NCBI GenBank assembly: GCA_020849855.1 | Contig: JADZFO010000038.1 | Location: 108,010-172,009 of the forward strand | Length of the DNA: 64,000 nucleotides | Source: a bacterium | Lineage (GTDB): Bacteria; 4484-113; JAFGCY01 | Reading direction: 5' to 3' | In this document: piece after piece, positions 2,264 to 54,061 of the stretch | Layout of the letters: every line of letters starts with the position of its first letter | Position numbering within the stretch: the stretch's first letter is position 1 | Position numbers and translations under genes: made by a program | Notes under the pieces: model-generated | The model's input: the letters and a program-made list of their open reading frames with translations, nothing else | What the model was told of the DNA's origin: nothing | Databases searched by the model: none

Positions 2264-2662
2264 ATGAACACAACAGGCGAATACAACTGGGTGGCGCTGT
2301 TCCTATTTGGCGGCGCCTGTGTGCTGGGGCTGGCCTTCGCCCTGGCCGCCCTGCTGCGCCCCAGCAACCCCGGCCTGTTCAAGCGCCTGACCTTCGAGAG
2401 CGGCGCGCGGGCCCTGGGCGACGCGCTGGTGCGCTTTAACGTGCGCTTCTATATCCTGGCCATCGTCTTCCTGATGTTCGACGTGGACGTGGTCTTCATC
2501 TTCCCCTGGGCCGCGGCCTTCCGCCTGCTGGTCTTTGGCGAGGAGAACCGCCTCTTCACCCCGATGGGCCCGGCCTGCCTGTGGGAGATGTTTGTCTTCA
2601 TCGGCATCCTGATGCTGGGCTGGGCCTATGCCTACCGCAAGGGGGCGCTGGAATGGGTCTAG
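2264..2662 (+). CDS. nuoA: NADH-quinone oxidoreductase subunit A-like (NuoA/Nqo7 family) membrane subunit
   Basis: 132 aa, 3 TM helices, diagnostic NuoA motif FDVDVVFIFPWA and a loop region ERLTFESGARALGDA. Confidence 0.85.
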   Translation: MNTTGEYNWVALFLFGGACVLGLAFALAALLRPSNPGLFKRLTFESGARALGDALVRFNVRFYILAIVFLMFDVDVVFIFPWAAAFRLLVFGEENRLFTPMGPACLWEMFVFIGILMLGWAYAYRKGALEWV

Positions 2663-2667
2663 GGAAG

Positions 2668-2878
2668 AGTGCTGATTGCGGATTGCTGATTTCTGATTCT
2701 CCGGAGCGCCTTGCCCATGGCAGGGCGCGCGGCAATCCCAGCATAGGCGAGTCGGCCGGTCGCAGCACTTGCTTCGATTTCCCCAGCTTTGGCCTGGAAT
2801 CAGCAGAGGCTTCTGCAAAGCTGACAGCTCTTAACAATCATCAATCAGCAATCATCACTCAGCAATCCGGCGGTGACT
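2668..2878. repeat. MITE-like intergenic element with terminal inverted repeats (TGCTGATTGCGGATTGCTGATT ... AATCATCAATCAGCAATCATCACTCAGCAATCC)
   Basis: The region between the nuoA-like and nuoB-like genes is flanked by ATTGCTGATTGC / GCAATCAGCAAT-type inverted repeats. A second copy of the same TIR family lies at 6340..6480. Confidence 0.5.
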
Positions 2879-2882
2879 CGGC

Positions 2883-3428
2883 ATGAGTATCGCAACTTCG
2901 CTGGAAAAGCTGATCCGCGAGTGCACCGCCCGCAGCCTCTGGCCGCTGACCCTGGGCCTGGACTATGCAACCCTCGAGATCTTCTCTGCCATCGGCCCGC
3001 AGTACGACATTGCGCGCCTGGGCAGCGAGGTGATGCGCCCCAGCCCGCGGCAGGTGGACCTGCTGATCATCGGCGGGGCGGTGACGGCCAAGATGGCGCC
3101 GGTGCTGCGCGGCCTGTATGAAAGCATGGCCGAGCCGCGCTTTGTGATGGCGCTGGGCAACGGGGCGATCAGCGGCGCGCCCTACAGCGGCAGCTACAAC
3201 GTGCTGCCGGGCATCGACGGGCTCCTGCCGGTGGACATCTTTGTGCCCGGCGACCCGCCGCGGCCGCAGCAGATCATGGAAGCGATCCTGCAGCTTGGCG
3301 AGGCCATCGCCAGCGGGAAGGCCCGCGGCGCGCAGAGCCTGGGCCGCTACCACCCCGAGCGCCTGGCCTACCTGCCGGCCGCGATGGTGGCGGGCAACAT
3401 CTGGCCGGAGGAAGACAATGCTTCCTGA
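2883..3428 (+). CDS. NuoB/Nqo6-like (NiFe-hydrogenase small-subunit fold) protein LACKING all four Fe-S cluster N2 cysteines
   Basis: 181 aa; clear NuoB backbone (WPLT.GL...RxGxEVxRxSPRQxD..I..G.VT.KMAP.L...Y..M.EP..V...G..A.SG.PY..SY.V..G.D...PVD..VPG.PPRP). The canonical CC is DY here (GLDYATLE), GACA is GNGA, and PGCPP is PGDPP. Confidence 0.85.
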   Translation: MSIATSLEKLIRECTARSLWPLTLGLDYATLEIFSAIGPQYDIARLGSEVMRPSPRQVDLLIIGGAVTAKMAPVLRGLYESMAEPRFVMALGNGAISGAPYSGSYNVLPGIDGLLPVDIFVPGDPPRPQQIMEAILQLGEAIASGKARGAQSLGRYHPERLAYLPAAMVAGNIWPEEDNAS

Positions 3429-4377
3429 GGCCGCGCTGAGTCTGCTGCGCGAGGTCAGTGAAGCCCACGGCGGCTGCCTGCTGATTGATGGCCGGCGCGG
3501 CCGCGCGCTGCTGTCGGATACCGCACGCCTGCTGGATGTGTGCAAGGGCCTGCGCCGCGGCGGCTTCACCCGCGCGATTGATTTCACAGCGATGCATGTA
3601 GGGGCGAGTCTTGACTCGCCCTCTTCAACAATGCGAGCATCAGGGAAGGCGGGTCAAGACCCGCCCCTACAGAATCAGGCGGGTCAAGACCCGCCCCTAC
3701 AGAATCAGGCGGGCCAGGACCCGCCACTACAGAATCAGGCAGGTCAGGACCCGCCACTACAGGAAGCGGCGGGCACAGAGGCCCGTTCCACCGAAGACGG
3801 GCCGAGACAAGCTCGGCCCCTACAAAACGACTTCGCCTTCTTCCTGCAGCTGCGGGCGCCGAAGTTCGGGCACAGCGGCATTCTGCTGAAATGGAAGTGG
3901 AGCCTGATTGAGCAGGCCCACCCGAGCCTGAGCCTGGTCTGGGCCTCCTGCGGCCTGGCCGAGCGCGAGATGCTGGAGATGCTGGGCGTCCCCTTCGCCG
4001 GGAATCCCGACCTGCGCCCGCTGCTGCTGGACATGCGCTTCGCCGGCCATCCCCTGCGCCGCGATTTCAAGAGCCCGCCGCCCCAGGACTACGCCAGCGC
4101 CCTGCTGGCGGACCGGCATGAGGCCGGGCTGATCTTTGGCCTGCGGCAGGCGGCGGAGAACAGGGGCACAACTCGGCCCTCAGGTTCCGCTTCCGACAAT
4201 ACAGGCGCATCGACTTCGCTCGACAGTCCCGCGTCCCGAGTCCTGAGTCCTGACGCACAAAAGCGCTCCGCCGAGGCAATGGACTACAGCGCAGAGCTGG
4301 GTATAGGCGAGAAGGGACTCAGGACCCAGGACTCAGGACAGCCCGGAAGCAGCGCGACGGAGGGCACAGCACCATGA
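3418..4377 (+). CDS. NuoC/Nqo5-like (30 kDa subunit) protein with an in-frame repeat insertion (4x GQDPPLQNQA) and a low-complexity C-terminal tail
   Basis: ORF track gives 3241..4377, but its 5' part overlaps nuoB in another frame. Start set at ATG 3418 (MLPEAALSLL), overlapping the nuoB stop. NuoC C-terminal signature W.SL...W.S..W.EREM.EM.GV.F.G.PDLR.LL......GHPLRRDF is present. An inserted segment is encoded by palindromic DNA repeats. Confidence 0.75.
   Translation: MLPEAALSLLREVSEAHGGCLLIDGRRGRALLSDTARLLDVCKGLRRGGFTRAIDFTAMHVGASLDSPSSTMRASGKAGQDPPLQNQAGQDPPLQNQAGQDPPLQNQAGQDPPLQEAAGTEARSTEDGPRQARPLQNDFAFFLQLRAPKFGHSGILLKWKWSLIEQAHPSLSLVWASCGLAEREMLEMLGVPFAGNPDLRPLLLDMRFAGHPLRRDFKSPPPQDYASALLADRHEAGLIFGLRQAAENRGTTRPSGSASDNTGASTSLDSPASRVLSPDAQKRSAEAMDYSAELGIGEKGLRTQDSGQPGSSATEGTAP
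3599..3780. repeat. in-frame palindromic repeat block: GGGGCGAGTCTTGACTCGCCC followed by 4 tandem ~30-bp units each containing the hairpin GGCGGGTC-AA-GACCCGCC
   Basis: Seen directly in the DNA. It is translated within the nuoC-like ORF as VGASLDSP...(AGQDPPLQNQ)x4. The same units recur in the nuoD-like gene, metG and aacS. Confidence 0.8.
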
Positions 4378-5606
4378 CGCTCTCCTCAATCCGCCGCGTT
4401 GAAAAGAGATACGACCCGCTGCTGACCGAGACCATCGTGGTCTCCGTCGGACCGCAGCACCCCTCCCTGGTCAGCCCGGTGCAGCTGCACATCCAGGCCG
4501 ACGGTGAGCTGATCGAGCGCGTCACCGTCGAGCAGGGATTCATGCACCGCGGCATCGAGATGCTGTGCAGCCAGCGCGACTGGGCCGGCTGCGCCGCGCT
4601 GCTTTCCCGCACTGAATGGCTGGCCGGGATGAACGGCCACTTCCTGCTGAGCAGCGCCATCGAGGAGCTTTCCGGCCTTGAAGTGCCGCAGCGCGCCCAG
4701 TTCCTGCGCAGCCTGGTGCTGGAGCTGGGGCGCCTGAGCAGCCACCTGTACTGGTTTGGCGACCTGGGCCTGGAGGTTGGCGCGGTGACGCCGGTCTTCT
4801 GGGCCATGCGCGAGCGCGAGCCGCTGCTGGAGCTGCTGGACATGCTTTCCGGCCACCGCTGGCACGGGGCCTACATCGTCCCAGGCGGGGTCAGCCATGA
4901 GCCGCCGGCGGCCTTCTATCAGCGCCTGCGCGCCTGGCTGCCCCTGATGCGCCGGCGGATCAACTCCTATGAGGAGTACTTCAGCGATAACGCCATCTGG
5001 GTCAACCGCAGCGAGCTGATCGGCGTGCTGGAAACCGACTACGCAATCAAGAACGGGGCCTCCGGCCCGGTGGCGCGGGCCAGCGCGGTGGACTGCGACC
5101 TGCGCCGCGACGCCCCTTATGCCGCCTACGGCGAGCTGAGCTTCAAGGTGCCGCTGGGCGAGTACGGCGACGCCCTCGACCGCTTCCGCGTCCGCTTTAT
5201 GGAAATGCGCGAAAGCATGAACATGGTCGAGCAGTGCCTGGATGCACTGGCCGGGGCCGAGCTTGGGTCCGCCCGGCTTGTAGGGGCGAGTCTTGACTCG
5301 CCCTCTTTAGCAGCAGGTATACAAGGGAAGGCGGGTCAAGACCCGCCACTACAGAATCAGGCGGGTCAAGACCCGCCCATACAAATCCCCGCCGGCGAGG
5401 CCTTTGTGTCGGTCGAAGGGCCGCGCGGCGAGCTGGCGCTGAGCGTCGTTTCCGACGGCGGGCACGGCCCGGCCCGTGTGCACCTGCGCGGGCCGAGCAT
5501 GTACCACCTGCACCTGCTGGACGAGCTTTGCCGCGGCTATCTGCTGGCCGACCTCTTCGTTATCTATGCCAGCCTCGACATCATGGTTGGGGAGGCGGAC
5601 CGATGA
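4374..5606 (+). CDS. NuoD/Nqo4-like (NiFe-hydrogenase large-subunit fold) protein without NiFe cysteines and without the conserved quinone-site His; carries an in-frame palindromic insertion
   Basis: 410 aa; ATGA overlap with nuoC. N-terminal GPQHPS...HRGIE (NuoD-like HRGxEK region) with no RxCGxC. C-terminal SLDIMVGEADR resembles the NuoD end SLDIVFGEVDR, not the hydrogenase DPCxxCxxH. The usual NFGPQHPAAHGVLRL is GPQHPSLVSPVQL (His absent). Insertion ...VGASLDSPSLAAGIQGKAGQDPPLQNQAGQDPPIQ.. at nt 5276-5395. Confidence 0.85.
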   Translation: MTLSSIRRVEKRYDPLLTETIVVSVGPQHPSLVSPVQLHIQADGELIERVTVEQGFMHRGIEMLCSQRDWAGCAALLSRTEWLAGMNGHFLLSSAIEELSGLEVPQRAQFLRSLVLELGRLSSHLYWFGDLGLEVGAVTPVFWAMREREPLLELLDMLSGHRWHGAYIVPGGVSHEPPAAFYQRLRAWLPLMRRRINSYEEYFSDNAIWVNRSELIGVLETDYAIKNGASGPVARASAVDCDLRRDAPYAAYGELSFKVPLGEYGDALDRFRVRFMEMRESMNMVEQCLDALAGAELGSARLVGASLDSPSLAAGIQGKAGQDPPLQNQAGQDPPIQIPAGEAFVSVEGPRGELALSVVSDGGHGPARVHLRGPSMYHLHLLDELCRGYLLADLFVIYASLDIMVGEADR

Positions 5607-5611
5607 GAGAG

Positions 5612-5782
5612 ATGGCTAATGGCAAATGGCTAATGGCTAATGGAGAAGACTGCCGACAAGATGTCGGCGCTCCGTTCGAGACCATCGACGGCGCAATTTG
5701 CCTACCTCCATTTGCCTTTTGCCTTTCCGGGCGCACTCTGTGCGCCCCTACATTAGCCATTAGCCATTCGACATTAGCCATG
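5612..5782. repeat. inverted-repeat (MITE/REP-like) element: ATGGCTAATGGCAAATGGCTAATGGCTAATGG ... CATTAGCCATTAGCCATTCGACATTAGCCAT, containing the REP-like palindrome GGGCGCACTCTGTGCGCCC
   Basis: Direct inspection of the 196-bp gap between the nuoD-like gene and the next gene. The internal palindrome recurs at 53958..54016. A related ATGGCTAATGG fragment is at 10860..10960. Confidence 0.55.
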
Positions 5783-5802
5783 GCCGCGCCGGAGGCAAGG
5801 CC

Positions 5803-6339
5803 GTGAGCATCAACCGCTTTGACAAGTACAAGAACGAGGTGCCGACCGAGGCCGAGCTGGCCGCGCCGAAGTTCCAGGCGGACTTCACACGCCCGCTGCT
5901 GCAGCGGGTCTGGGCCTATTACATGTGGCGCCTGCTGGCGCTGCTGATGTCCATTGCCTGCTTTGTCTGGTATGGCTACTGGTCCGGCAAGGCGGCGATG
6001 GTGGCGCGGGACGACTACCCGAACCTTTACGTTGAGATCAACAATTACCTGGCCAGCCCCTTCAACCACTACTTCGTGGCGCTTTGCGGGATCCTGCTGC
6101 TGGCGATGGCCTTCAGCCCCCTGGGCCTGCGCGGCATGGCCATGCTGGGCAACTGGCAGCTGCTGGTGATCGCCTACTGGGGCGCGCTGGTGGTCTTCCT
6201 GGTCCTGAAGCTGACCGAGCATGTCATCGACTTCGAGGCGCCCTCGGCGCTGAAGGCGGTCTTTTACCCTTATGTGCTGGTGGCCATCGCCCTGAGCTTC
6301 ATGGAGCTGCGCTCGCTGGAAGAAGAGGTGGCCTCATGA
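5803..6339 (+). CDS. hypothetical integral membrane protein (about 4 TM helices) encoded inside the complex-I-like operon
   Basis: 178-aa ORF with hydrophobic segments (LLALLMSIACFVWYGYW, FVALCGILLLAMAF, LLVIAYWGALVVFLVL, YVLVAIALSF). No similarity to a known Nuo subunit recognised. Confidence 0.45.
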   Translation: MSINRFDKYKNEVPTEAELAAPKFQADFTRPLLQRVWAYYMWRLLALLMSIACFVWYGYWSGKAAMVARDDYPNLYVEINNYLASPFNHYFVALCGILLLAMAFSPLGLRGMAMLGNWQLLVIAYWGALVVFLVLKLTEHVIDFEAPSALKAVFYPYVLVAIALSFMELRSLEEEVAS

Positions 6340-6480
6340 GGCGATTGCTGATTGCGGATTGCGGATTGCTGATTGCAAAGAGTGCCTCGCAGGGCAGCAG
6401 CACTGTGCTGCTGACTTCCGCGCGGCTCCGGGAAGTCATCAATCATCAATCATCAGTCAGCAATTGCAGCAAGCGAGGTG
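6340..6480. repeat. second copy of the ATTGCTGATTGC-TIR MITE-like element
   Basis: GATTGCTGATTGCGGATTGCGGATTGCTGATTGC ... TCATCAATCATCAATCATCAGTCAGCAATTGC flanks a GC-rich core. Same TIR family as 2668..2878. Confidence 0.5.
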
Positions 6481-6499
6481 CGACATCCTGAGCACACCC

Positions 6500-16837: not shown

Positions 16838-16917
16838 CTCGTCGTGTCCCTACAGCAATAGTACCCGTGTGTAACCCTTCCTGCAGTCCCGGCCTGCGGG
16901 CGGACATCCGTCCGCCC

Positions 16918-17523
16918 CTACTCATCCAGCAGGGCCGGGTCCAGGATCTCGGCCAGGCGCAGCTTGCCCCGGCGGATATGGGTCCGCACGGTGTTCAGGT
17001 TGAGCTGCATGGCCTCGGCAATCTCTTCATAGCTCAGTTCTTCAAAGTAATACAGGCACAGCGCCACCCGCTGCAGCTCCGGCAGGCGCTTCAGCGCGCG
17101 GCCCAGATCGGTGTTCTGGGCGTGGCCGGCGCTGGCCGACTGGCGCAGGTCCTGGGGCTGGACGCCCACTTCGGCCTGCTCCTCAATGCTCGCGCTGCCC
17201 GGGCGGCTGGCCTTGCGCTTGAGGTGCTGGCGGGCCACATTTATGGCAATGCGGTAGATCCAGCTAGAAAGCTTGGCCTCTCCGCGGAAGCCGCCAAGGC
17301 CCTTATAAGCATTGACAAAGGTCAGCTGGGCCAGGTCCTCGACATCGCTTGCTTCAACGCCCTGGGCGGAGATCACGCCGGCGACCAGGCTGGAGTAGCT
17401 GTCCACAATGCGGGCGAACAAATGGCTCTCGCCGGCGGCAATCCGCCGGCACAAGGCAAGCTCGTCTGTGCCCGTCTCCACTTTTGGCGCCATCCCCAGC
17501 CAGGTGTTGATCCGTGTGAGCAT
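16918..17523 (-). CDS. ECF-type RNA polymerase sigma factor (sigma-70 regions 2 and 4)
   Basis: 201 aa; LAQLTFVNAYKGLGGFRGEAKLSSWIYRIAINVARQHL (region 2) and LPELQRVALCLYYFEELSYEEIAEAMQLNLNTVRTHIRRGKLRL (region 4 HTH). Confidence 0.85.
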   Translation of the reverse strand: MLTRINTWLGMAPKVETGTDELALCRRIAAGESHLFARIVDSYSSLVAGVISAQGVEASDVEDLAQLTFVNAYKGLGGFRGEAKLSSWIYRIAINVARQHLKRKASRPGSASIEEQAEVGVQPQDLRQSASAGHAQNTDLGRALKRLPELQRVALCLYYFEELSYEEIAEAMQLNLNTVRTHIRRGKLRLAEILDPALLDE

Positions 17524-23769: not shown

Positions 23770-25857
23770 CTAGCGCACCACGACGCCGGGATCCAGCGGC
23801 TGCTCAGGGGAGACCAGCGCCAGCTTGCCGCTGTCGCCGCCCGCCGCCAGCACCATGCCCTCGCTCATAAGTCCGCGCATCTTGCGCGGGGCCAGATTCG
23901 CCACGAACACGATCTGCTTGCCGACCAGGCTTTCCGGCGCGTAATACATGGCGATGCCGGCCAGGATGGTGCGCTCGCGCTCGCCGTCAAAAACGGTCAG
24001 CTTAAGCAGCTTGTCGGCGCCTTCCACCTTATCTGCGGCGCGGATTTCGCCGACCCGCAGCTGGACTTTGGCGAAGTCGTCAATCGTAATGAAGGCGTCG
24101 GGGGTTGCGGTCTCGGTGCGGCTCGGCGTGGCGGCGGGTCCTGACCCGCCTTCTCCCTGCTTGGCTTTGGGCGAGTCAAGACTCGCCCCAGCAGGAGCGG
24201 ACCCAGCCCCCGCGCCTGACTCCGCCAGCTTCTTTTCCCAGTCCACACGCATGAAGACCGGCTCGCTGGAGCCGGCCTTGTGTCCCGCGGGAATGCGCTC
24301 ATTTAGCGCGTCAGCCTGCAGGTCCTCAAGCCGGCCGCTGAGGCCCAGGATGCCCCAGAAGCGGTTGGCCGCGCCGGGGATGACCGGATAGGCCAGCAGC
24401 AGCACGGTGCGCAGCACCTGCATCAGGCGGTTGAATACCGTGCTGACCTCGTCCCGGCGCTCGGGCTTCTTCTTCAGCTCCCAGGGCTTCTTTTCGTCGA
24501 TGTACTTGTTGGCTTCGCCGATCAGCTCCCAGATGGCCTGCAGGGCTTCGCTGTACTGCAGGTTCTCAAAGTGCGCCTGGGCTTCATGGATGCTGCGCTT
24601 GCGGCGCTCTTCCAGGGCGTCGTCAAGGTCGCTGACGGCCAGCTCGTCGGGCACGACGCCCTCGAAGAGCTGGTCCAGCATGCTGACCGTGCGGTGCACC
24701 AGGTTGCCCAGGTCGTTGGCCAGGTCATAGTTGAAGCGCTTGACCAGGCGCTCGTGGCTGAAGTCGCCGTCGAGGCCCAGGGGCACCTCGCGGGCCAGGA
24801 AATAGCGCAGGCCGTCCACGCCGACCAGGGCCATGGCGTCCTGCGGGCTGACCACGTTGCCCAGGGACTTGCTCATCTTCTCGCCTTCGAAGTCCCAGTA
24901 GCCGTGGACCAGGAACTGCTTGGGCAGGGCCAGGCCGTAGCTTTCCAGCACCGCCGGGAAGATGATGCAGTGGAACCAGGGGATGTCCTTGGCCATGATG
25001 TGCAGGTCGCAGGGCCAGCGGTTCTGCGCCGGCTGGCTCTTCAGGTCCGCGCGGGTCACGCTGTAAAGGTCGCCGGGCGCCTCGCTGGAGCGGCTGGCCC
25101 AGTTGCCGGGCTCAAAGGTCTTTTCATAGGTATCTATGTCAAAGCCCGAGCCGGTGACATAAGTCAGCAGGGCGTCCATCCAGACATAGAAGACATGCTG
25201 CTCGTCCCAGGGCAGCTTGACGCCCCAGTCGGTGGAGGTGCGGCTGATGCAGATGTCCTTCAGGCCGCCGCGGATGCGGTTGAGCATCTCGTTGCGGCGC
25301 GAGTCCGGGGTGATCAGGCCGGGGTGGGTCTCATGCAGGGCCAGCAGCCAGTCCTGGTAGCGGCTGAGGCGGAAGTAATAGGCCTCTTCGGTCAGGTGCT
25401 TGAGGCGCGGGTGGCTTTCGGGGTTCTCCGGCACCTCGTCCTCGTCCAGGAAGCGGTTGTCGCTGGTGTGGTACCAGCCGCTGTAGGAGCCCTTATAGAT
25501 ATCGCCCTTCTGGTAGATGCGGTTGAAGAAGGTGCGCACCAGGTGATGGTGCCGGGGGTCGCTGGTGCGGTGGAACTCATAGCTCTGGATGTTCACCGCG
25601 GCCCAGGTGTCCCGGAAGCTCGGGACGATTTCATCGCAGAACTGCTGCGGGCTAAGGCCCCTGGCGGCGGCGAGGTCGGCGATGTTCTGGCTGTGCTCGT
25701 CGGAGCCGGTGACCAGCAGGGCCTCGCGGCCCATGAAGCGCGCATGGCGGCAGGCGATGTCCGCGATGATCGTCGTATAGCTGGTGCCGATGTGCGGCTT
25801 GCTGTTGACGTAATAGATCGGCGTCGTGACGTAAAAGCGCTTGTCGTGCTGACTCAT
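23770..25857 (-). CDS. metG: methionine--tRNA ligase with C-terminal tRNA-binding (EMAP/Trbp111-like) domain; carries an in-frame palindromic insertion
   Basis: Start at MSQHDKRFYVTTPIYYVNSKPHIGTSYTTI (HIGH motif). KMSKS motif present. C-terminal ...ITIDDFAKVQLRVGEIRAADKVEGADKLLKLTVFDG.. Insert AGASLDSPKAKQGEGGSGPAATPS is encoded by GGGCGAGTCAAGACTCGCCC and GGCGGGTCCTGACCCGCC at nt 24120-24200. ORF track extends to 25941 but the region upstream of 25857 lacks aaRS sequence. Confidence 0.9.
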   Translation of the reverse strand: MSQHDKRFYVTTPIYYVNSKPHIGTSYTTIIADIACRHARFMGREALLVTGSDEHSQNIADLAAARGLSPQQFCDEIVPSFRDTWAAVNIQSYEFHRTSDPRHHHLVRTFFNRIYQKGDIYKGSYSGWYHTSDNRFLDEDEVPENPESHPRLKHLTEEAYYFRLSRYQDWLLALHETHPGLITPDSRRNEMLNRIRGGLKDICISRTSTDWGVKLPWDEQHVFYVWMDALLTYVTGSGFDIDTYEKTFEPGNWASRSSEAPGDLYSVTRADLKSQPAQNRWPCDLHIMAKDIPWFHCIIFPAVLESYGLALPKQFLVHGYWDFEGEKMSKSLGNVVSPQDAMALVGVDGLRYFLAREVPLGLDGDFSHERLVKRFNYDLANDLGNLVHRTVSMLDQLFEGVVPDELAVSDLDDALEERRKRSIHEAQAHFENLQYSEALQAIWELIGEANKYIDEKKPWELKKKPERRDEVSTVFNRLMQVLRTVLLLAYPVIPGAANRFWGILGLSGRLEDLQADALNERIPAGHKAGSSEPVFMRVDWEKKLAESGAGAGSAPAGASLDSPKAKQGEGGSGPAATPSRTETATPDAFITIDDFAKVQLRVGEIRAADKVEGADKLLKLTVFDGERERTILAGIAMYYAPESLVGKQIVFVANLAPRKMRGLMSEGMVLAAGGDSGKLALVSPEQPLDPGVVVR

Positions 25858-25993
25858 CGAAATGCCCCTTCGCCCAAGCGCAGCGGCAGATGAGCCGCAG
25901 CCTGTGTTCGGGCGAAGGGGAAGTATAACGCGGGCGGGCATAGGCTGCCTGGATCTTTACGGCGGCCCGCCCCGCTAAGGGAGCTGCCTGGGC

Positions 25994-36277: not shown

Positions 36278-38047
36278 CTAATGCGCCTGAACATGCGCAT
36301 GCTCTTCTTCCTGCGCGTGCTCGTCTTCGTGCCCATGCTCTTCTTCATGCCCATGCTCGTCTTCATGCTCGTGCCCATGCCCATGAGCGTGATCATGCTC
36401 GTGCTCTTCCTCGCTGTGGCCCGGCACCTCAAAGCTGGCGTCACCGGCGGGATGGTGGTGGCCGCCGATGCTCCAGTCGATGCCCAGCCAGAGGCTGCCA
36501 ACCCTGCGGCCCAGGTGCTGGGCGTCGTCGTGGTTGTACTGCAGGCGCACCCGCGTCGCCTCGCTGGGGTACCAGGCCAGCAGCGGGCTGATGCGGCTGC
36601 GCTCGTCGCGCAGGGGGTCGTGCTCGCTGCCGCCCACGCTTTCGCCGCTGCTGCCGGCAAACTCATAGCGCAGGCCGGCGGCCCACTGCGGGCGGAAGCC
36701 GTAGAGCAGCTGGCTGTAGGCCGCGCTGTCACGCAGGCTCAGAGCCGGCAGGTCTATCGGGTTTGCCAGGTCGCTGTCATCCTGCAGGGCCGCAGCATCA
36801 TAGCTGCGCAGGGCGTACTCGCTTTCCCAGAGCACAAAGGGCCATTCGCCCGGACAGGGCTGGTAGAGATAGCTCAGGTCCGCGCCATAGATGCTGGTTC
36901 GGCTGCCGGCACCGCTGCCATTGGGCCCCCACATGCCAGACAGGCCCAGGCGCCAGCGCGAGCTCTCCGACTGCCAGGTGTTCTCCCAGCGCAGTGTGGC
37001 GAGCAGGGCGGCTGAATCGTCCAGCTGCGGGCGCAGGCCCGGGCCGAGGCTTTCATAGCGCTCTTCCAGCAGCAGCAGCAGCGGGTCTTCCTCCTCTTCC
37101 TCCCCGCCGTGCTCCTCTTCCTCGCCATGGCTGTGGCCGGCGCCGCGGAAGCTGACCATGCTCTCGTCGGCGGCATTCTGCACACCGATGACCAGGCGGC
37201 TTTGCCAGTCTTCGTCCTCGTCCCAGTCCTCGCCGCTGTTCTTGTTCCAGGCCAGGGCCACACCACCGGCGCGGCCGCCTTCGGAGCCGAAGAAGCGGCT
37301 GACCAGCAGCTGCTGGTCCATCCAGCTCCAGCTGTGCGGGTGGCGCGCATTGTGCAGGCCGAAATCTGTATAGAACTGGCCGGCCTTCAGCTCGAAGCCG
37401 CGCCCGAGCTGGCTGAGCAGGTAGGCCTCCTCCAGCTCGGCGCCTTCCTCCCCAAAGCTGATGTTCAGCTGGCCGCGGGCGCGCGCTGTGACCCAGCCGC
37501 CGAGGCTGAGCTCGGCAATCGGCGTGCTGAAACCCTGGGCGCGCGGGTCATGGTGGCCGGCCTGCAGAGCTTCCAGCTCGGCGTCCTCCGCATCGCTGAA
37601 GCCCAGGTAGGACATCACGTTCAGGCCCAGCTCCAGCGGCAGGTCGTGGAAGTGCTCATGCCATGTGGCCGGCGGCTCGCAGTGCGTGGCCTCTGCCTGC
37701 TGCGGTGCCAGGGCGACCTCGACGCTGTCGCCGGCATGCGCCTCATGCGCCGCATGCCCTTCATGCCCGGCACCTTCAGCATGCTCATGCTCAGCATGTC
37801 CTGCTTGCTCTGCATGCCCGGCATTCTCGGCATGGGCCTGACCCGCTTCATGCTGGTGCCCGGCCTCATGCTCATCCTCAGCCGCAGCCGCGGTGAAGAG
37901 AGCGCTGCCCGGTACCACGCCCAGGGTCAGAACTAGGATCAGGCCCAGGAGCAGGCACAGCAGTCCATAGGCCCTGCTTGCCTTGACAAGGCCCGGAAAA
38001 CTACGCGGCTGGCAGCGCGGGCGAAAGGTGATGCACGGATTGCTCAT
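36278..38047 (-). CDS. His-rich metal-binding protein, probable outer-membrane/porin-like, predicted Zur/Fur-regulated
   Basis: 589 aa; signal peptide; N-terminal (HEAGHQHEAGQAHAENAGHAEQAGHAEHEHAEGAGHEGHAAHEAH) and C-terminal (HSEEEHEHDHAHGHGHEHEDEHGHEEEHGHEDEH) His/Glu-rich blocks. Middle region has alternating-polarity beta-strand-like stretches. Start codon abuts a Fur-box palindrome. Divergent from a Fur-family gene. Confidence 0.5.
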   Translation of the reverse strand: MSNPCITFRPRCQPRSFPGLVKASRAYGLLCLLLGLILVLTLGVVPGSALFTAAAAEDEHEAGHQHEAGQAHAENAGHAEQAGHAEHEHAEGAGHEGHAAHEAHAGDSVEVALAPQQAEATHCEPPATWHEHFHDLPLELGLNVMSYLGFSDAEDAELEALQAGHHDPRAQGFSTPIAELSLGGWVTARARGQLNISFGEEGAELEEAYLLSQLGRGFELKAGQFYTDFGLHNARHPHSWSWMDQQLLVSRFFGSEGGRAGGVALAWNKNSGEDWDEDEDWQSRLVIGVQNAADESMVSFRGAGHSHGEEEEHGGEEEEEDPLLLLLEERYESLGPGLRPQLDDSAALLATLRWENTWQSESSRWRLGLSGMWGPNGSGAGSRTSIYGADLSYLYQPCPGEWPFVLWESEYALRSYDAAALQDDSDLANPIDLPALSLRDSAAYSQLLYGFRPQWAAGLRYEFAGSSGESVGGSEHDPLRDERSRISPLLAWYPSEATRVRLQYNHDDAQHLGRRVGSLWLGIDWSIGGHHHPAGDASFEVPGHSEEEHEHDHAHGHGHEHEDEHGHEEEHGHEDEHAQEEEHAHVQAH

Positions 38048-43382: not shown

Positions 43383-43554
43383 AGCCTGTACTTGCAAGGG
43401 TGCAGGCCTGCCTGCACTTGTAGGGTGCAGGCCTGCCTGCACCATTTCCGGAGGTGCACGCACGCCTGCACCCTACCGACCTCGATAGCAGAGCGCCCGG
43501 GCGGGATGCCCGGGCGCAATGTCACCTGACTCGCAGGTCAGCCGATAGAGATGA

Positions 43555-46505: not shown

Positions 46506-48836
<2,331 letters not shown>

Positions 48837-53957: not shown

Positions 53958-54016
53958 GCGCCGGGCGCAGGCTGTGCGCCCCCACATATCGGATCCGGGC
54001 GCACTCTGTGCGCCCC
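53958..54016. repeat. two REP-like palindromes (GGGCGCAGGCTGTGCGCCC and GGGCGCACTCTGTGCGCCCCTAC) in the convergent gap between the methyltransferase and kinase-like genes
   Basis: Same palindromic unit as at 5718-5740. Could double as a bidirectional terminator. Confidence 0.5.
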
Positions 54017-54061
54017 TACCCTTCAGCAACACTGCCTTGTGCCTTGCGACTTTTGTCCTGA

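What the first reader, a model, noticed from the sequence alone, without database searches (positions are those of the whole stretch)
3599..5395. Palindromic GC-rich elements inserted in frame into nuoC-like and nuoD-like genes, creating peptide repeats (VGASLDSP..., 4x AGQDPPLQNQ)
GGGGCGAGTCTTGACTCGCCC and the hairpin unit GGCGGGTC-AA-GACCCGCC (tandemly repeated four times in nuoC, twice in nuoD) sit inside the reading frames without disrupting them, lengthening surface loops of otherwise conserved proteins. The same two units occur in metG and related ones in aacS. This resembles Rickettsia palindromic elements (RPEs), which also spread into coding sequences in frame. Apart from RPEs I know of few described cases, so this may be a new family in this lineage. 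Additional AGTCCTG/CAGGACT-type palindromic runs occupy the nuoC C-terminal tail (4230-4340).
Basis: seen in the sequence. Interest (0 to 1): 0.7.

Follow-up and report, generated by a model that had tools for sequence, protein, structure and literature searches.

The report
In-frame GTAG palindromic repeats in genes
Short GC-rich hairpin repeats of the well-known REP/REPIN type (small bacterial repeats thought to be copied around by a dedicated transposase) have settled in frame inside flexible loops and tails of several housekeeping genes of this Planctomycetes-like bacterium, a phenomenon already described in other bacteria, so this is a clear new example rather than a new kind of element.

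Summary
GGGGCGAGTCTTGACTCGCCC occurs three times exactly, and the 18-mer hairpin 17 times at ≤3 mismatches against 0.2 expected. All copies lie inside intact ORFs (nuoC, nuoD, metG). The units are GTAG-tagged REPs: a 9-bp stem with a 2-nt loop (8-bp stem, 4-nt loop under DNA folding), arranged as inverted doublets (GTAG-hairpin…hairpin-CTAC) with a 30-bp tandem expansion.

- **Genuine insertions.** Orthologues lack them, the closest genome carries different repeat combinations at the same sites, GC3 falls from ~0.9 to ~0.5 inside them, and AlphaFold models place them in disordered loops.
- **Maintained as nucleic acid.** Both hairpins of the shared nuoD doublet are identical between two genomes whose 4-fold sites differ by 33%.
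- **Cognate transposase.** In other phyla the same REP is extragenic and flanks a REP-associated tyrosine transposase gene. No such gene was found in the sequence held for this lineage.

Intragenic GTAG REPs were described by Di Nocera et al. (2013), most abundantly in the PVC bacterium Opitutus terrae, and Rickettsia RPE-4/6 belong to the sister CGTC class. Verdict: a new member of a known kind.

The AGTCCTG runs belong to a second, poorly described family of inverted heptamer-array elements that also insert in frame.

The parts
3418..4377 (+). nuoC-like host gene (319 aa as read here; NCBI's model P0121 starts at the internal ATG inside the insert)
   Evidence: Pfam Complex1_30kDa. The N-terminal 60 aa are conserved in orthologues and fold with the core.
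3598..3828 (+). nuoC internal insert, 231 nt = 77 codons: a cluster of GTAG REP units
   Evidence: Absent from orthologues P0123, P0126-P0128 and L112, which have ~5 aa here. GC3 0.57 against 0.92 in the core. pLDDT ~40 coil between strands 52-61 and 138-147.
3598..3621 (+). Left REP unit GTAGGGGCGAGTCTTGACTCGCCC (A.T stem variant, GTAG head)
3647..3762 (+). 30-bp tandem array x3.9 of CTAC-tailed units (AGGCGGGTCAAGACCCGCCCCTACAGAATC), inverted relative to the left unit
   Evidence: 27-nt arms 89% complementary (I3). Folds at -24.6 kcal/mol, z = -6.3.
3799..3823 (-). Second REP subtype GTAGGGGCCGAGCTTGTCTCGGCCC inside the nuoC insert
   Evidence: The same subtype occupies this site in the relative.
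4226..4339 (.). Inverted heptamer-array element, (AGTCCTG)n...(CAGGACT)n, forming most of the nuoC C-terminal tail, in frame
   Evidence: Folds with z = -3.0. The relative has a GC-palindrome doublet here instead.
4374..5606 (+). nuoD-like host gene (410 aa)
   Evidence: Pfam Complex1_49kDa. dN/dS 0.11 against the relative. Model TM ~0.8 to complex I 49-kDa subunits.
5280..5387 (+). nuoD insert (36 codons): head-to-head REP doublet plus one extra 30-bp unit
   Evidence: Units at 5280-5303(+), 5330-5352(-) and 5360-5382(-). GC3 0.47. pLDDT <50 coil (residues 308-332). Shared with the relative minus one unit. Folds with z = -7.6.
24133..24189 (-). Degenerate REP doublet (both GTAG/CTAC tags lost) in the metG linker between the anticodon-binding and tRNA_bind domains
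   Evidence: Folds with z = -3.7.
46921..46991 (+). REP-like hairpin (GGGCGGGGACAAGCCCCGCCC with a CTGC tail) within a 36-bp tandem, in frame in the aacS-like gene
47452..47572 (.). Inverted heptamer-array element (AGTCCTG type), in frame in the aacS-like gene
   Evidence: 82.6% identical over 115 bp to a copy inside MutS of the relative.
5729..5751 (-). Intergenic GTAG REP, subtype GTAGGGGCGCACAGAGTGCGCCC, abutting a heptamer array
16898..16921 (-). Intergenic GTAG REP whose TAG supplies the stop codon of gene 16918-17523(-)
43420..43476 (.). Intergenic head-to-head REP doublet (GTAGGGTGCAGGC...) between convergent genes
53975..54019 (-). Two tandem intergenic REP units (GGGCGCA..TGCGCCCC[C/T]AC) between convergent genes

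Best explanation
The GC-rich palindromes are members of the GTAG-tagged REP superfamily. Each is a roughly 24-nt unit: a 5' GTAG followed by a 9-bp stem and a 2-nt loop as read from the palindrome (an 8-bp stem with a 4-nt loop under DNA folding). Most are arranged as head-to-head inverted doublets (REPIN-like), which fold into one long hairpin as single strands. Such elements are non-autonomous. The accepted model is that a single-copy REP-associated tyrosine (HUH/Y1) transposase, RAYT, recognises the GTAG-hairpin on single-stranded DNA and cuts and joins it. In this lineage copies have landed in intergenic spacers, as is usual, and also inside genes. Only those that fell in the one stop-free frame (the other two frames of the GTAG strand contain TAG and TGA), had a length divisible by three, and hit structurally permissive places survived selection. 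Those places are a beta-turn in NuoC, a degenerate loop in NuoD, an inter-domain linker in MetRS, and C-terminal tails. The survivors are now translated as disordered peptide (xGASLDSP..., AGQDPPLQ). The 30-bp unit (REP plus a 7-nt spacer, divisible by three) then expanded by slippage or unequal recombination. Shown here: the anatomy, the insertion status, turnover between two genomes, nucleic-acid-level conservation, and linkage of this same REP to a RAYT gene in other genomes. Inferred: RAYT-driven mobility in this genome, and that the inserts are translated and tolerated rather than useful.
For: GTAG head on 117 of 126 units. The variable stem pair is only G.C (109) or A.T (17), never mismatched. 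44% of units have an inverted partner, median spacer 30 nt. The doublets fold far better than shuffles, z = -6.3 and -7.6. Orthologues lack the inserts: NuoC P0123 and others, NuoD P0021 and P0026. Other orthologues carry different palindrome doublets at the same NuoD loop (L112, L113). The closest genome (NuoD 89% identical by BLASTP) has different REP combinations at the nuoC site and tail, and one unit fewer in nuoD. GC3 is 0.47-0.57 in the inserts against 0.86-0.92 in the host segments. The host nuoD has dN/dS 0.11, yet both hairpin units are unchanged at 33% four-fold divergence (P ~ 4e-9) while the spacer is scrambled. The inserts are low-pLDDT coil between confident secondary-structure elements. 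The relative also has in-frame copies in MutS, a radical-SAM HemW-like protein and BshC, as well as intergenic copies, and coding copies always read GA[S/G]LD[S/P]P. The same REP flanks a RayT-type gene in L045, 33 nt upstream and 18 nt downstream; it matches Pfam Y1_Tnp, and its best NCBIfam hit is 'REP-associated tyrosine transposase' at 79.3 bits against a cutoff of 80. Published precedent for intragenic GTAG REPs: PMC3733652.
Against: No RAYT-like ORF was found in the 64-kb window or in about 78 kb of the relative. However, only a fraction of either genome is held, and the screen was a motif search. No target-site duplication and no high-identity 'empty site' allele was seen, so recent transposition is not demonstrated. 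Several copies have degenerate tags (metG has lost both; nuoD has ATAC; the relative has CTGC) and may be immobile fossils. Perfect conservation of the hairpins could equally reflect local selection for a function, or gene conversion. Translation through the inserts is inferred from intact ORFs and purifying selection on the flanks, not observed.
Confidence: 0.75

Rival explanations
1. The hairpins are kept because they do something locally as RNA or DNA. For example, intra-operon mRNA stem-loops could set the relative stability or translation rate of the nuo cistrons, pause ribosomes for co-translational assembly, or act as gyrase/IHF-type DNA sites. Their presence inside ORFs would then be selected, not merely tolerated. 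This can coexist with a REP origin.
For: Both hairpin units of the nuoD doublet are identical between genomes at 33% neutral divergence while the spacer is not. Strict stem covariation. Stable folds. REP and heptamer elements occupy the same nuo junctions in both genomes. Published REP roles in mRNA stabilisation are summarised in PMC3733652.
Against: The conserved sequence is the family master sequence, found unchanged in unrelated phyla. This points to constraint from the mobilising enzyme, or to copy-to-copy homogenisation, rather than a locus-specific role. The nuoC site holds different REP subtypes in the two genomes, and orthologues manage with none. The hosts are functionally unrelated: NuoC/D, MetRS, AacS, MutS, HemW-like and BshC.
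Confidence: 0.15
2. The repeats are protein-level features: selected flexible linkers or interaction motifs (PPLQ-type decapeptide repeats) that happen to be encoded by palindromic DNA.
For: The frame is preserved, the same peptide recurs in three proteins, and the 30-bp tandem gives a regular decapeptide.
Against: Synonymous positions inside the hairpins are as conserved as non-synonymous ones. GC3 is non-host-like. Identical DNA occurs intergenically and in other frames (GGSRPAPT, GRVKTRPY). The peptide frame is forced by stop codons in the other two frames. The predicted structure is disordered. Orthologues lack the segment.
Confidence: 0.05
3. Artefact or decay: collapsed or chimeric assembly of repeats, or nuoC/nuoD are pseudogenes being invaded by repeats.
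For: The window is probably from a metagenome-assembled genome (its NuoD is deposited at NCBI only as '[bacterium]' on a 224-kb contig), and the relative is a MAG. The relative's assembly has an N-gap and a duplicated gene end exactly at a heptamer element. NCBI's NuoC model is truncated at the insert. The operon is non-canonical.
Against: Two independent assemblies place the nuoD doublet at the same codon. All host ORFs are uninterrupted. nuoD has dN/dS 0.11. The tandem array spans 116 nt, and every insert is a multiple of three. Copy number in the tandem array is the only feature an assembler could plausibly mis-state.
Confidence: 0.03

Closest known systems
GTAG-tagged REPs, including intragenic copies (Di Nocera, De Gregorio & Rocco 2013, BMC Genomics 14:522, PMC3733652); REPINs (Bertels & Rainey 2011, PMC3116915)
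   Same: A 5' GTAG tag. A short GC-rich stem (6-13 bp) with a 2-4-nt loop. Complementary stem variants. Head-to-head dimers with 20-100-nt spacers. Tandem clusters. Intergenic copies between convergent genes. The GTAG supplying a TAG stop codon. In-frame intragenic dimers and clusters encoding 20-80 aa in known proteins, including NADH dehydrogenase subunits and tRNA synthetases. Greatest intragenic load in a PVC bacterium (O. terrae). A RAYT gene flanked by the REP (REPtron), seen here for this REP in L045.
   Different: This stem sequence (GGGCG[A/G]GTC-TT-GAC[T/C]CGCCC) and its peptides are not in the paper's supplementary tables, nor in any text in the searchable library (the paper's Figure 1 could not be read). 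The host is an uncultured Planctomycetes-like lineage. About four of nine or ten REP sites in the window are intragenic, a high share. A RAYT has not been found in the sequence held for this lineage.
Rickettsia palindromic elements (RPE; Ogata et al. 2000, as summarised in PMC10969869 and PMC3733652)
   Same: Palindromic repeats inserted in frame into unrelated housekeeping genes, adding peptide segments judged compatible with the fold. Copies occur both within and between genes.
   Different: RPE-1-type elements are ~100-150 bp, AT-rich and confined to Rickettsia. RPE-4/6 carry the CGTC tag, not GTAG, and no transposase is linked to CGTC repeats. There is no sequence relationship to the present units.
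Paired tandem-repeat sites and heptanucleotide-repeat elements of Geobacter metallireducens (Aklujkar et al. 2009, PMC2700814); cyanobacterial STRR heptamers (recalled from memory, not checked here)
   Same: For the AGTCCTG-type elements only. These are multicopy elements made of 3-5 tandem 7-9-nt repeats, occurring as opposite-strand pairs at variable distance. One class has the consensus MTYCTGA (compare xTCCTGA here). Another heptamer family occurs within as well as between genes.
   Different: In Geobacter they were annotated as putative regulator binding sites, without evidence. No in-frame analysis, mobility or conserved core was reported. Relatedness to the elements here is untested.

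Membership tests
GTAG-REP superfamily / REPIN | Short (20-40 nt) palindromic unit forming a stem-loop, with a stem of 6-13 bp and a small loop | tested here: met
   9-bp perfect stem with a 2-nt loop as read from the palindrome; an 8-bp stem with a 4-nt loop under DNA folding.
GTAG-REP superfamily / REPIN | Unpaired GTAG tetranucleotide at one end, conserved in >90% of members | tested here: met
   117 of 126 units (93%) across 110 loci have GTA immediately 5' of GGGGCG. The window copies at 3598 and 5280 have it; the metG copy has lost it.
GTAG-REP superfamily / REPIN | Sub-families differing by complementary (compensated) stem changes | tested here: met
   The stem pair is G.C in 109 units and A.T in 17, with no A.C or G.T, although the search pattern allowed them.
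GTAG-REP superfamily / REPIN | Inverted dimers (GTAG outward, 'HH'; REPIN) with ~20-100-nt spacers that can fold into a longer hairpin | tested here: met
   56 of 126 units have an inverted partner, median spacer 30 nt. Window doublets at nuoC, nuoD and metG fold with z = -6.3, -7.6 and -3.7.
GTAG-REP superfamily / REPIN | Dispersed, multi-copy within a genome | tested here: inconclusive
   The window has at least 19 GTAG-type units at 9-10 sites in 64 kb. No whole genome of this lineage could be scanned.
GTAG-REP superfamily / REPIN | Cognate RAYT (REP-associated tyrosine transposase) gene flanked by the REP (REPtron) in the same genome | tested here: inconclusive
   Met for the same REP in Oscillospiraceae loci (L045, L079, L007). 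No HUH...Y ORF in the window or in the ~78 kb held of the relative. The rest of both genomes is not available.
GTAG-REP superfamily / REPIN | Mobilisation by RAYT (cleavage and joining at the GTAG-hairpin) | not testable with these tools
   Requires biochemistry or population data. Only turnover between two genomes is seen.
Rickettsia palindromic elements (RPE) | Membership of one of the Rickettsia RPE sequence families (RPE-1-type ~100-150 bp; RPE-4/6 CGTC-tagged) | tested here: not met
   The tag is GTAG, not CGTC; the units are 24 nt and GC-rich; the host is not Rickettsia. No direct sequence comparison with RPE sequences was run.
Rickettsia palindromic elements (RPE) | In-frame insertion into unrelated conserved genes at structurally permissive sites | tested here: met
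   NuoC, NuoD, MetRS and AacS in the window; MutS, HemW-like and BshC in the relative. The NuoC and NuoD inserts are low-pLDDT coil. This is a shared behaviour, not shared ancestry.
Classical MITE | Terminal inverted repeats plus target-site duplication, derived from an IS with a DDE transposase | tested here: not met
   Inverted arms are present (27 nt, 89%), but no direct duplication flanks the nuoC, nuoD or metG inserts. The associated enzyme in other genomes is a Y1/HUH type, which makes no duplications (general knowledge of the IS200/IS605 family).

The most novel reading that the evidence does not exclude
The inverted heptamer-array elements may be an undescribed class of small non-autonomous mobile element whose terminal inverted repeats are built from tandem heptamers. 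The arms consist of 4-5 tandem 7-mers, with at least three heptamer 'flavours', around 60-140-nt hairpin-rich cores. This class can also insert in frame (nuoC tail, aacS, MutS of the relative). It co-occurs with GTAG REPs in distant phyla, which hints at a shared mobilising or generating mechanism.
Probability: 0.3. Interest if true: 0.6.

Novelty: new member of a known kind. Interest (0 to 1): 0.35.

Why it matters
It adds a clean, well-controlled example of REP/REPIN-type selfish DNA becoming part of essential proteins, in a phylum where this had only been noted for small hypothetical ORFs. One case shows the same protein loop colonised independently by three different palindrome families, which is useful for studying how proteins acquire disordered segments.

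There are also practical consequences:
- These inserts mislead gene callers. NCBI's NuoC model starts inside the insert.
- They break assemblies.
- They inflate 'novel' peptide motifs in metagenomic protein catalogues.

The exact conservation of a 24-nt REP across phyla and GC contents bears on the debate over whether REP-RAYT systems are purely vertically inherited.

Tried and rejected
**Protein-level census of in-frame copies**
- A 48-aa profile gave only 7 hits, all with E > 0.1, and did not even recover the source proteins.
- The exhaustive search with the 80-aa nuoC insert returned 32 hits. The only genuine one was the source protein P0121; the other 31 carried no REP motif, and those read were unrelated low-complexity decapeptide-repeat proteins.
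- This approach was abandoned in favour of DNA-level tallies.

**Other searches that led nowhere**
- Rfam found no family in the window.
- A loose 'GTAG plus any hairpin' screen had too much background (25 observed against ~14 simulated), so only GTAGGG heads with perfect stems of at least 8 bp were used.
- The HUH...Y motif screen for a RAYT was negative in the window and the relative.
- The window's own contig could not be retrieved, and one orthologue locus had no DNA.
- A literature search on STRR/heptamer terms was mostly noise.

**Ideas considered and rejected**
- nuoC split into two genes in the relative: the extra ORF there is a separate 176-aa gene absent from the window.
- Heptamer arrays as an integral part of the REP element: in the Oscillospiraceae loci they share intergenic space but are not consistently inverted around the REP.
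Full report
**1. The observation**

- GGGGCGAGTCTTGACTCGCCC is exact at 3601, 5283 and 24169(-). There are 8 matches at up to 3 mismatches against 0.01 expected.
- GGCGGGTCAAGACCCGCC gives 17 matches against 0.21 expected.
- A 30-bp unit is repeated 3.9 times at 3647-3762.

All copies lie inside uninterrupted ORFs that Pfam identifies as NuoC (3418-4377), NuoD (4374-5606) and MetRS (23770-25941, minus strand). The three exact copies are all read as GASLDSP. This frame is forced: on the GTAG strand the other two frames contain TAG and TGA, as the sequence shows directly.

**2. Anatomy**

Each unit is a GTAG head followed by a 9-bp stem and a 2-nt loop as read from the palindrome (an 8-bp stem with a 4-nt loop under DNA folding). 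In nuoC and nuoD a left unit (GTAGGGGCGAGTCTTGACTCGCCC) faces one or more inverted right units (…GGCGGGTCAAGACCCGCCCCTAC). This gives 27-nt arms that are 89% complementary. As single strands they fold into one long hairpin well beyond shuffled controls, z = -6.3 and -7.6.

Across 110 public loci that contain the 20-mer:
- 117 of 126 units carry the GTAG head.
- The one variable stem pair is always G.C (109) or A.T (17), never mismatched, although the pattern allowed mismatches.
- 44% have an inverted partner, at a median distance of 30 nt.

Other GTAG subtypes occur in the window at 3799, 5729, 16898, 43420/43453 and 53975/53997. Most lie between convergent genes. The copy at 16898-16921 supplies the TAG stop codon of gene 16918-17523(-).

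**3. Are they insertions?**

Yes. In NuoC, orthologues such as P0123, P0126-P0128 and the L112 protein have about five residues where the window has 77. In NuoD, the whole clade has lost the canonical 'ALIHHFK' helix segment and has a variable loop instead. P0021 and P0026 have nothing in that loop. P0010 and P0014 carry other palindrome doublets there, as their DNA shows (L112, GGTGG…CCACC-ended; L113, GTAG-headed).

The closest genome is GCA_964512635.1, labelled 'uncultured Planctomycetales', with NuoD 89% identical by BLASTP. Compared with the window:
- it shares the nuoD doublet minus one 30-bp unit;
- it has a different REP subtype combination at the nuoC site;
- it has a GC-palindrome doublet in the nuoC tail where the window has a heptamer element.

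GC3 is 0.47-0.57 inside the inserts against 0.86-0.92 in the host segments.

AlphaFold models place the inserts in low-confidence coil:
- NuoD (pTM 0.82): the segment with pLDDT below 50 (residues 308-332) lies in coil between helix 267-294 and strand 340-349. The fold matches complex I 49-kDa subunits at TM ~0.8.
- NuoC: residues 62-137, between strands 52-61 and 138-147, both with pLDDT ≥ 89. The C-terminal tail (253-319) is also disordered.
- MetRS: the copy lies between the anticodon-binding and tRNA_bind domains.

**4. What maintains them**

nuoD is under purifying selection between the two genomes (dN/dS 0.11, dS 0.46). Four-fold sites differ by 33%. Yet both hairpin units of the shared doublet are identical (P ~ 4e-9 if neutral), while the spacer between them is scrambled. 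So conservation acts on the nucleic-acid hairpin, not the peptide.

The same 24-mer is found unchanged in unrelated phyla, including genomes of 28-36% GC. There it is extragenic in all 24 metagenome stretches examined. In Oscillospiraceae loci it flanks Y1/HUH genes. These match Pfam Y1_Tnp, and their best NCBIfam hit is 'REP-associated tyrosine transposase' (79.3 bits against a cutoff of 80, for a slightly truncated query). In L045 the gene has the REP 33 nt upstream and 18 nt downstream, which is a REPtron. No such gene was found in the window or in the ~78 kb held from the relative. That leaves RAYT mobilisation in this lineage inferred rather than shown.

**5. Extent in the lineage**

In the window about four of nine or ten REP sites are intragenic: nuoC, nuoD, metG and aacS. 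In the relative, in-frame copies occur in MutS, a radical-SAM HemW-like protein and BshC, beside intergenic copies. All coding copies use the single open frame.

**6. Comparison with what is known**

Di Nocera et al. (2013, PMC3733652) defined the GTAG and CGTC REP superfamilies, 24 and 4 families in more than 80 species, including Planctomycetes and Verrucomicrobia. They described head-to-head dimers and complementary stem variants. They noted that GTAG ends supply stop codons. They listed REPs inside known genes, mostly dimers or groups encoding 20-30 aa, with clusters up to 82 aa. Their list includes:
- an NADH:ubiquinone oxidoreductase subunit in O. terrae;
- NuoC in R. conorii;
- several tRNA synthetases.

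They also equated RPE-4/6 with CGTC REPs. The present stem sequence and its peptides are not in their tables, nor in any searchable paper. The finding is therefore a new member of a known kind. It works like RPEs but is not an RPE.

**7. The AGTCCTG runs**

These belong to a second family: inverted pairs of heptamer arrays around 60-140-nt cores.
- There are five in the window: 2667-2867, 4226-4339, 5612-5781, 6340-6464 and 47452-47572. The window holds 11 heptamer arrays against 1-5 in simulations.
- Three sit at nuo intergenic junctions, and the relative has elements at the same three junctions. At two of these the arms are almost unchanged while the cores diverge. At the third the heptamer itself differs.
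- The AGTCCTG type is in frame in the nuoC tail, in aacS and in the relative's MutS, with near-identical arms and a partly shared core.

The nearest precedent found is the set of paired tandem-repeat sites and heptanucleotide elements of G. metallireducens, whose function was never tested. This part remains only partly explained.

**8. Verdict**

The best explanation is that GTAG-REP/REPIN elements have become fixed in frame at permissive sites (confidence 0.75). Interest is moderate to low, because the phenomenon is published. The heptamer elements are the most novel loose end.

Noticed in passing
window 2667-2867, 5612-5781, 6340-6464 (intergenic, nuo operon); 4226-4339 and 47452-47572 (in frame); L111 5920-6121, 9294-9414, 9977-10098; L082 4649-4770: Inverted pairs of tandem heptamer arrays (flavours GATTGCK, ATGGCTA, AGTCCTG) around hairpin-rich cores. 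The arms are conserved between genomes and the cores are not. The AGTCCTG type is dispersed in three different genes. Heptamer arrays are also enriched (97 against 18 simulated) in unrelated Oscillospiraceae loci that carry the same GTAG REP.
   Followed up: partly
window 2264-15667 (nuoA, B, C, D, orf178, H, orf339, J, K and two antiporter-like genes): The complex-I-like operon looks non-redox. NuoB lacks all four N2-cluster cysteines (CC->DY, C->G, C->D against the solved NuoB chain 8e9g_B). NuoD reads GPQHPSLVSP where close canonical NuoD homologues read GPQHPSTHG; that this His is the conserved quinone-site residue is from general knowledge. NuoD also lacks the ALIHHFK helix. No NuoE/F/G/I-like gene is present, and there are only two antiporter-like subunits. 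It may be an Ehr-like or otherwise undescribed complex-I relative.
   Followed up: partly
window 3418-3630 against the NCBI protein P0121: The public gene model for this NuoC (248 aa) starts at the ATG inside the REP insert (aa 72 of the ORF). This omits a conserved 60-aa N-terminus that the model folds confidently with the core, so it is probably an annotation error caused by the repeat.
   Followed up: yes
L007 2198-2716 (shown on the minus strand); L045 1236-1963: In an Oscillospiraceae MAG the RAYT-like gene itself carries an in-frame copy of the REP (…LINVFVGAGLDPPAKC…). In L045 the RAYT gene is flanked by the REP on both sides (REPtron).
   Followed up: partly
L123, L127, L137 (28-36% GC) and many other loci: The identical 24-nt GC-rich REP occurs in very distant taxa and GC backgrounds: Firmicutes, Planctomycetes, Gammaproteobacteria, Chloroflexi, Acidobacteria and Gemmatimonadota. 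This suggests either horizontal spread of the REP-RAYT pair or very strong sequence constraint.
   Followed up: no
window 8152-8942: A nucleotidyltransferase/HepT-like (MNT-HEPN) toxin-antitoxin pair sits inside the nuo operon between nuoH and the next gene. Its GC3 is lower (0.64 for HepT), which suggests a recent insertion. The relative has a different 177-aa ORF there.
   Followed up: no
L111 about 9140-9290: The relative's assembly has a run of N and a duplicated nuoD 3' end exactly where the window has a heptamer element, so these repeats break short-read assemblies.
   Followed up: no
window 36292-36404 and 37731-37834, inside gene 36278-38047(-): Several overlapping 9/12/18/30/36-bp tandem repeats (CATGCCCATGCTCGTCTT and others) lie within one 590-aa ORF. 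They probably encode a Met/His/Gly-rich repetitive protein. Not examined.
   Followed up: no
L111 6674-7204: The relative has an extra 176-aa ORF (no Pfam hit) between nuoB and nuoC that is absent from the window.
   Followed up: no
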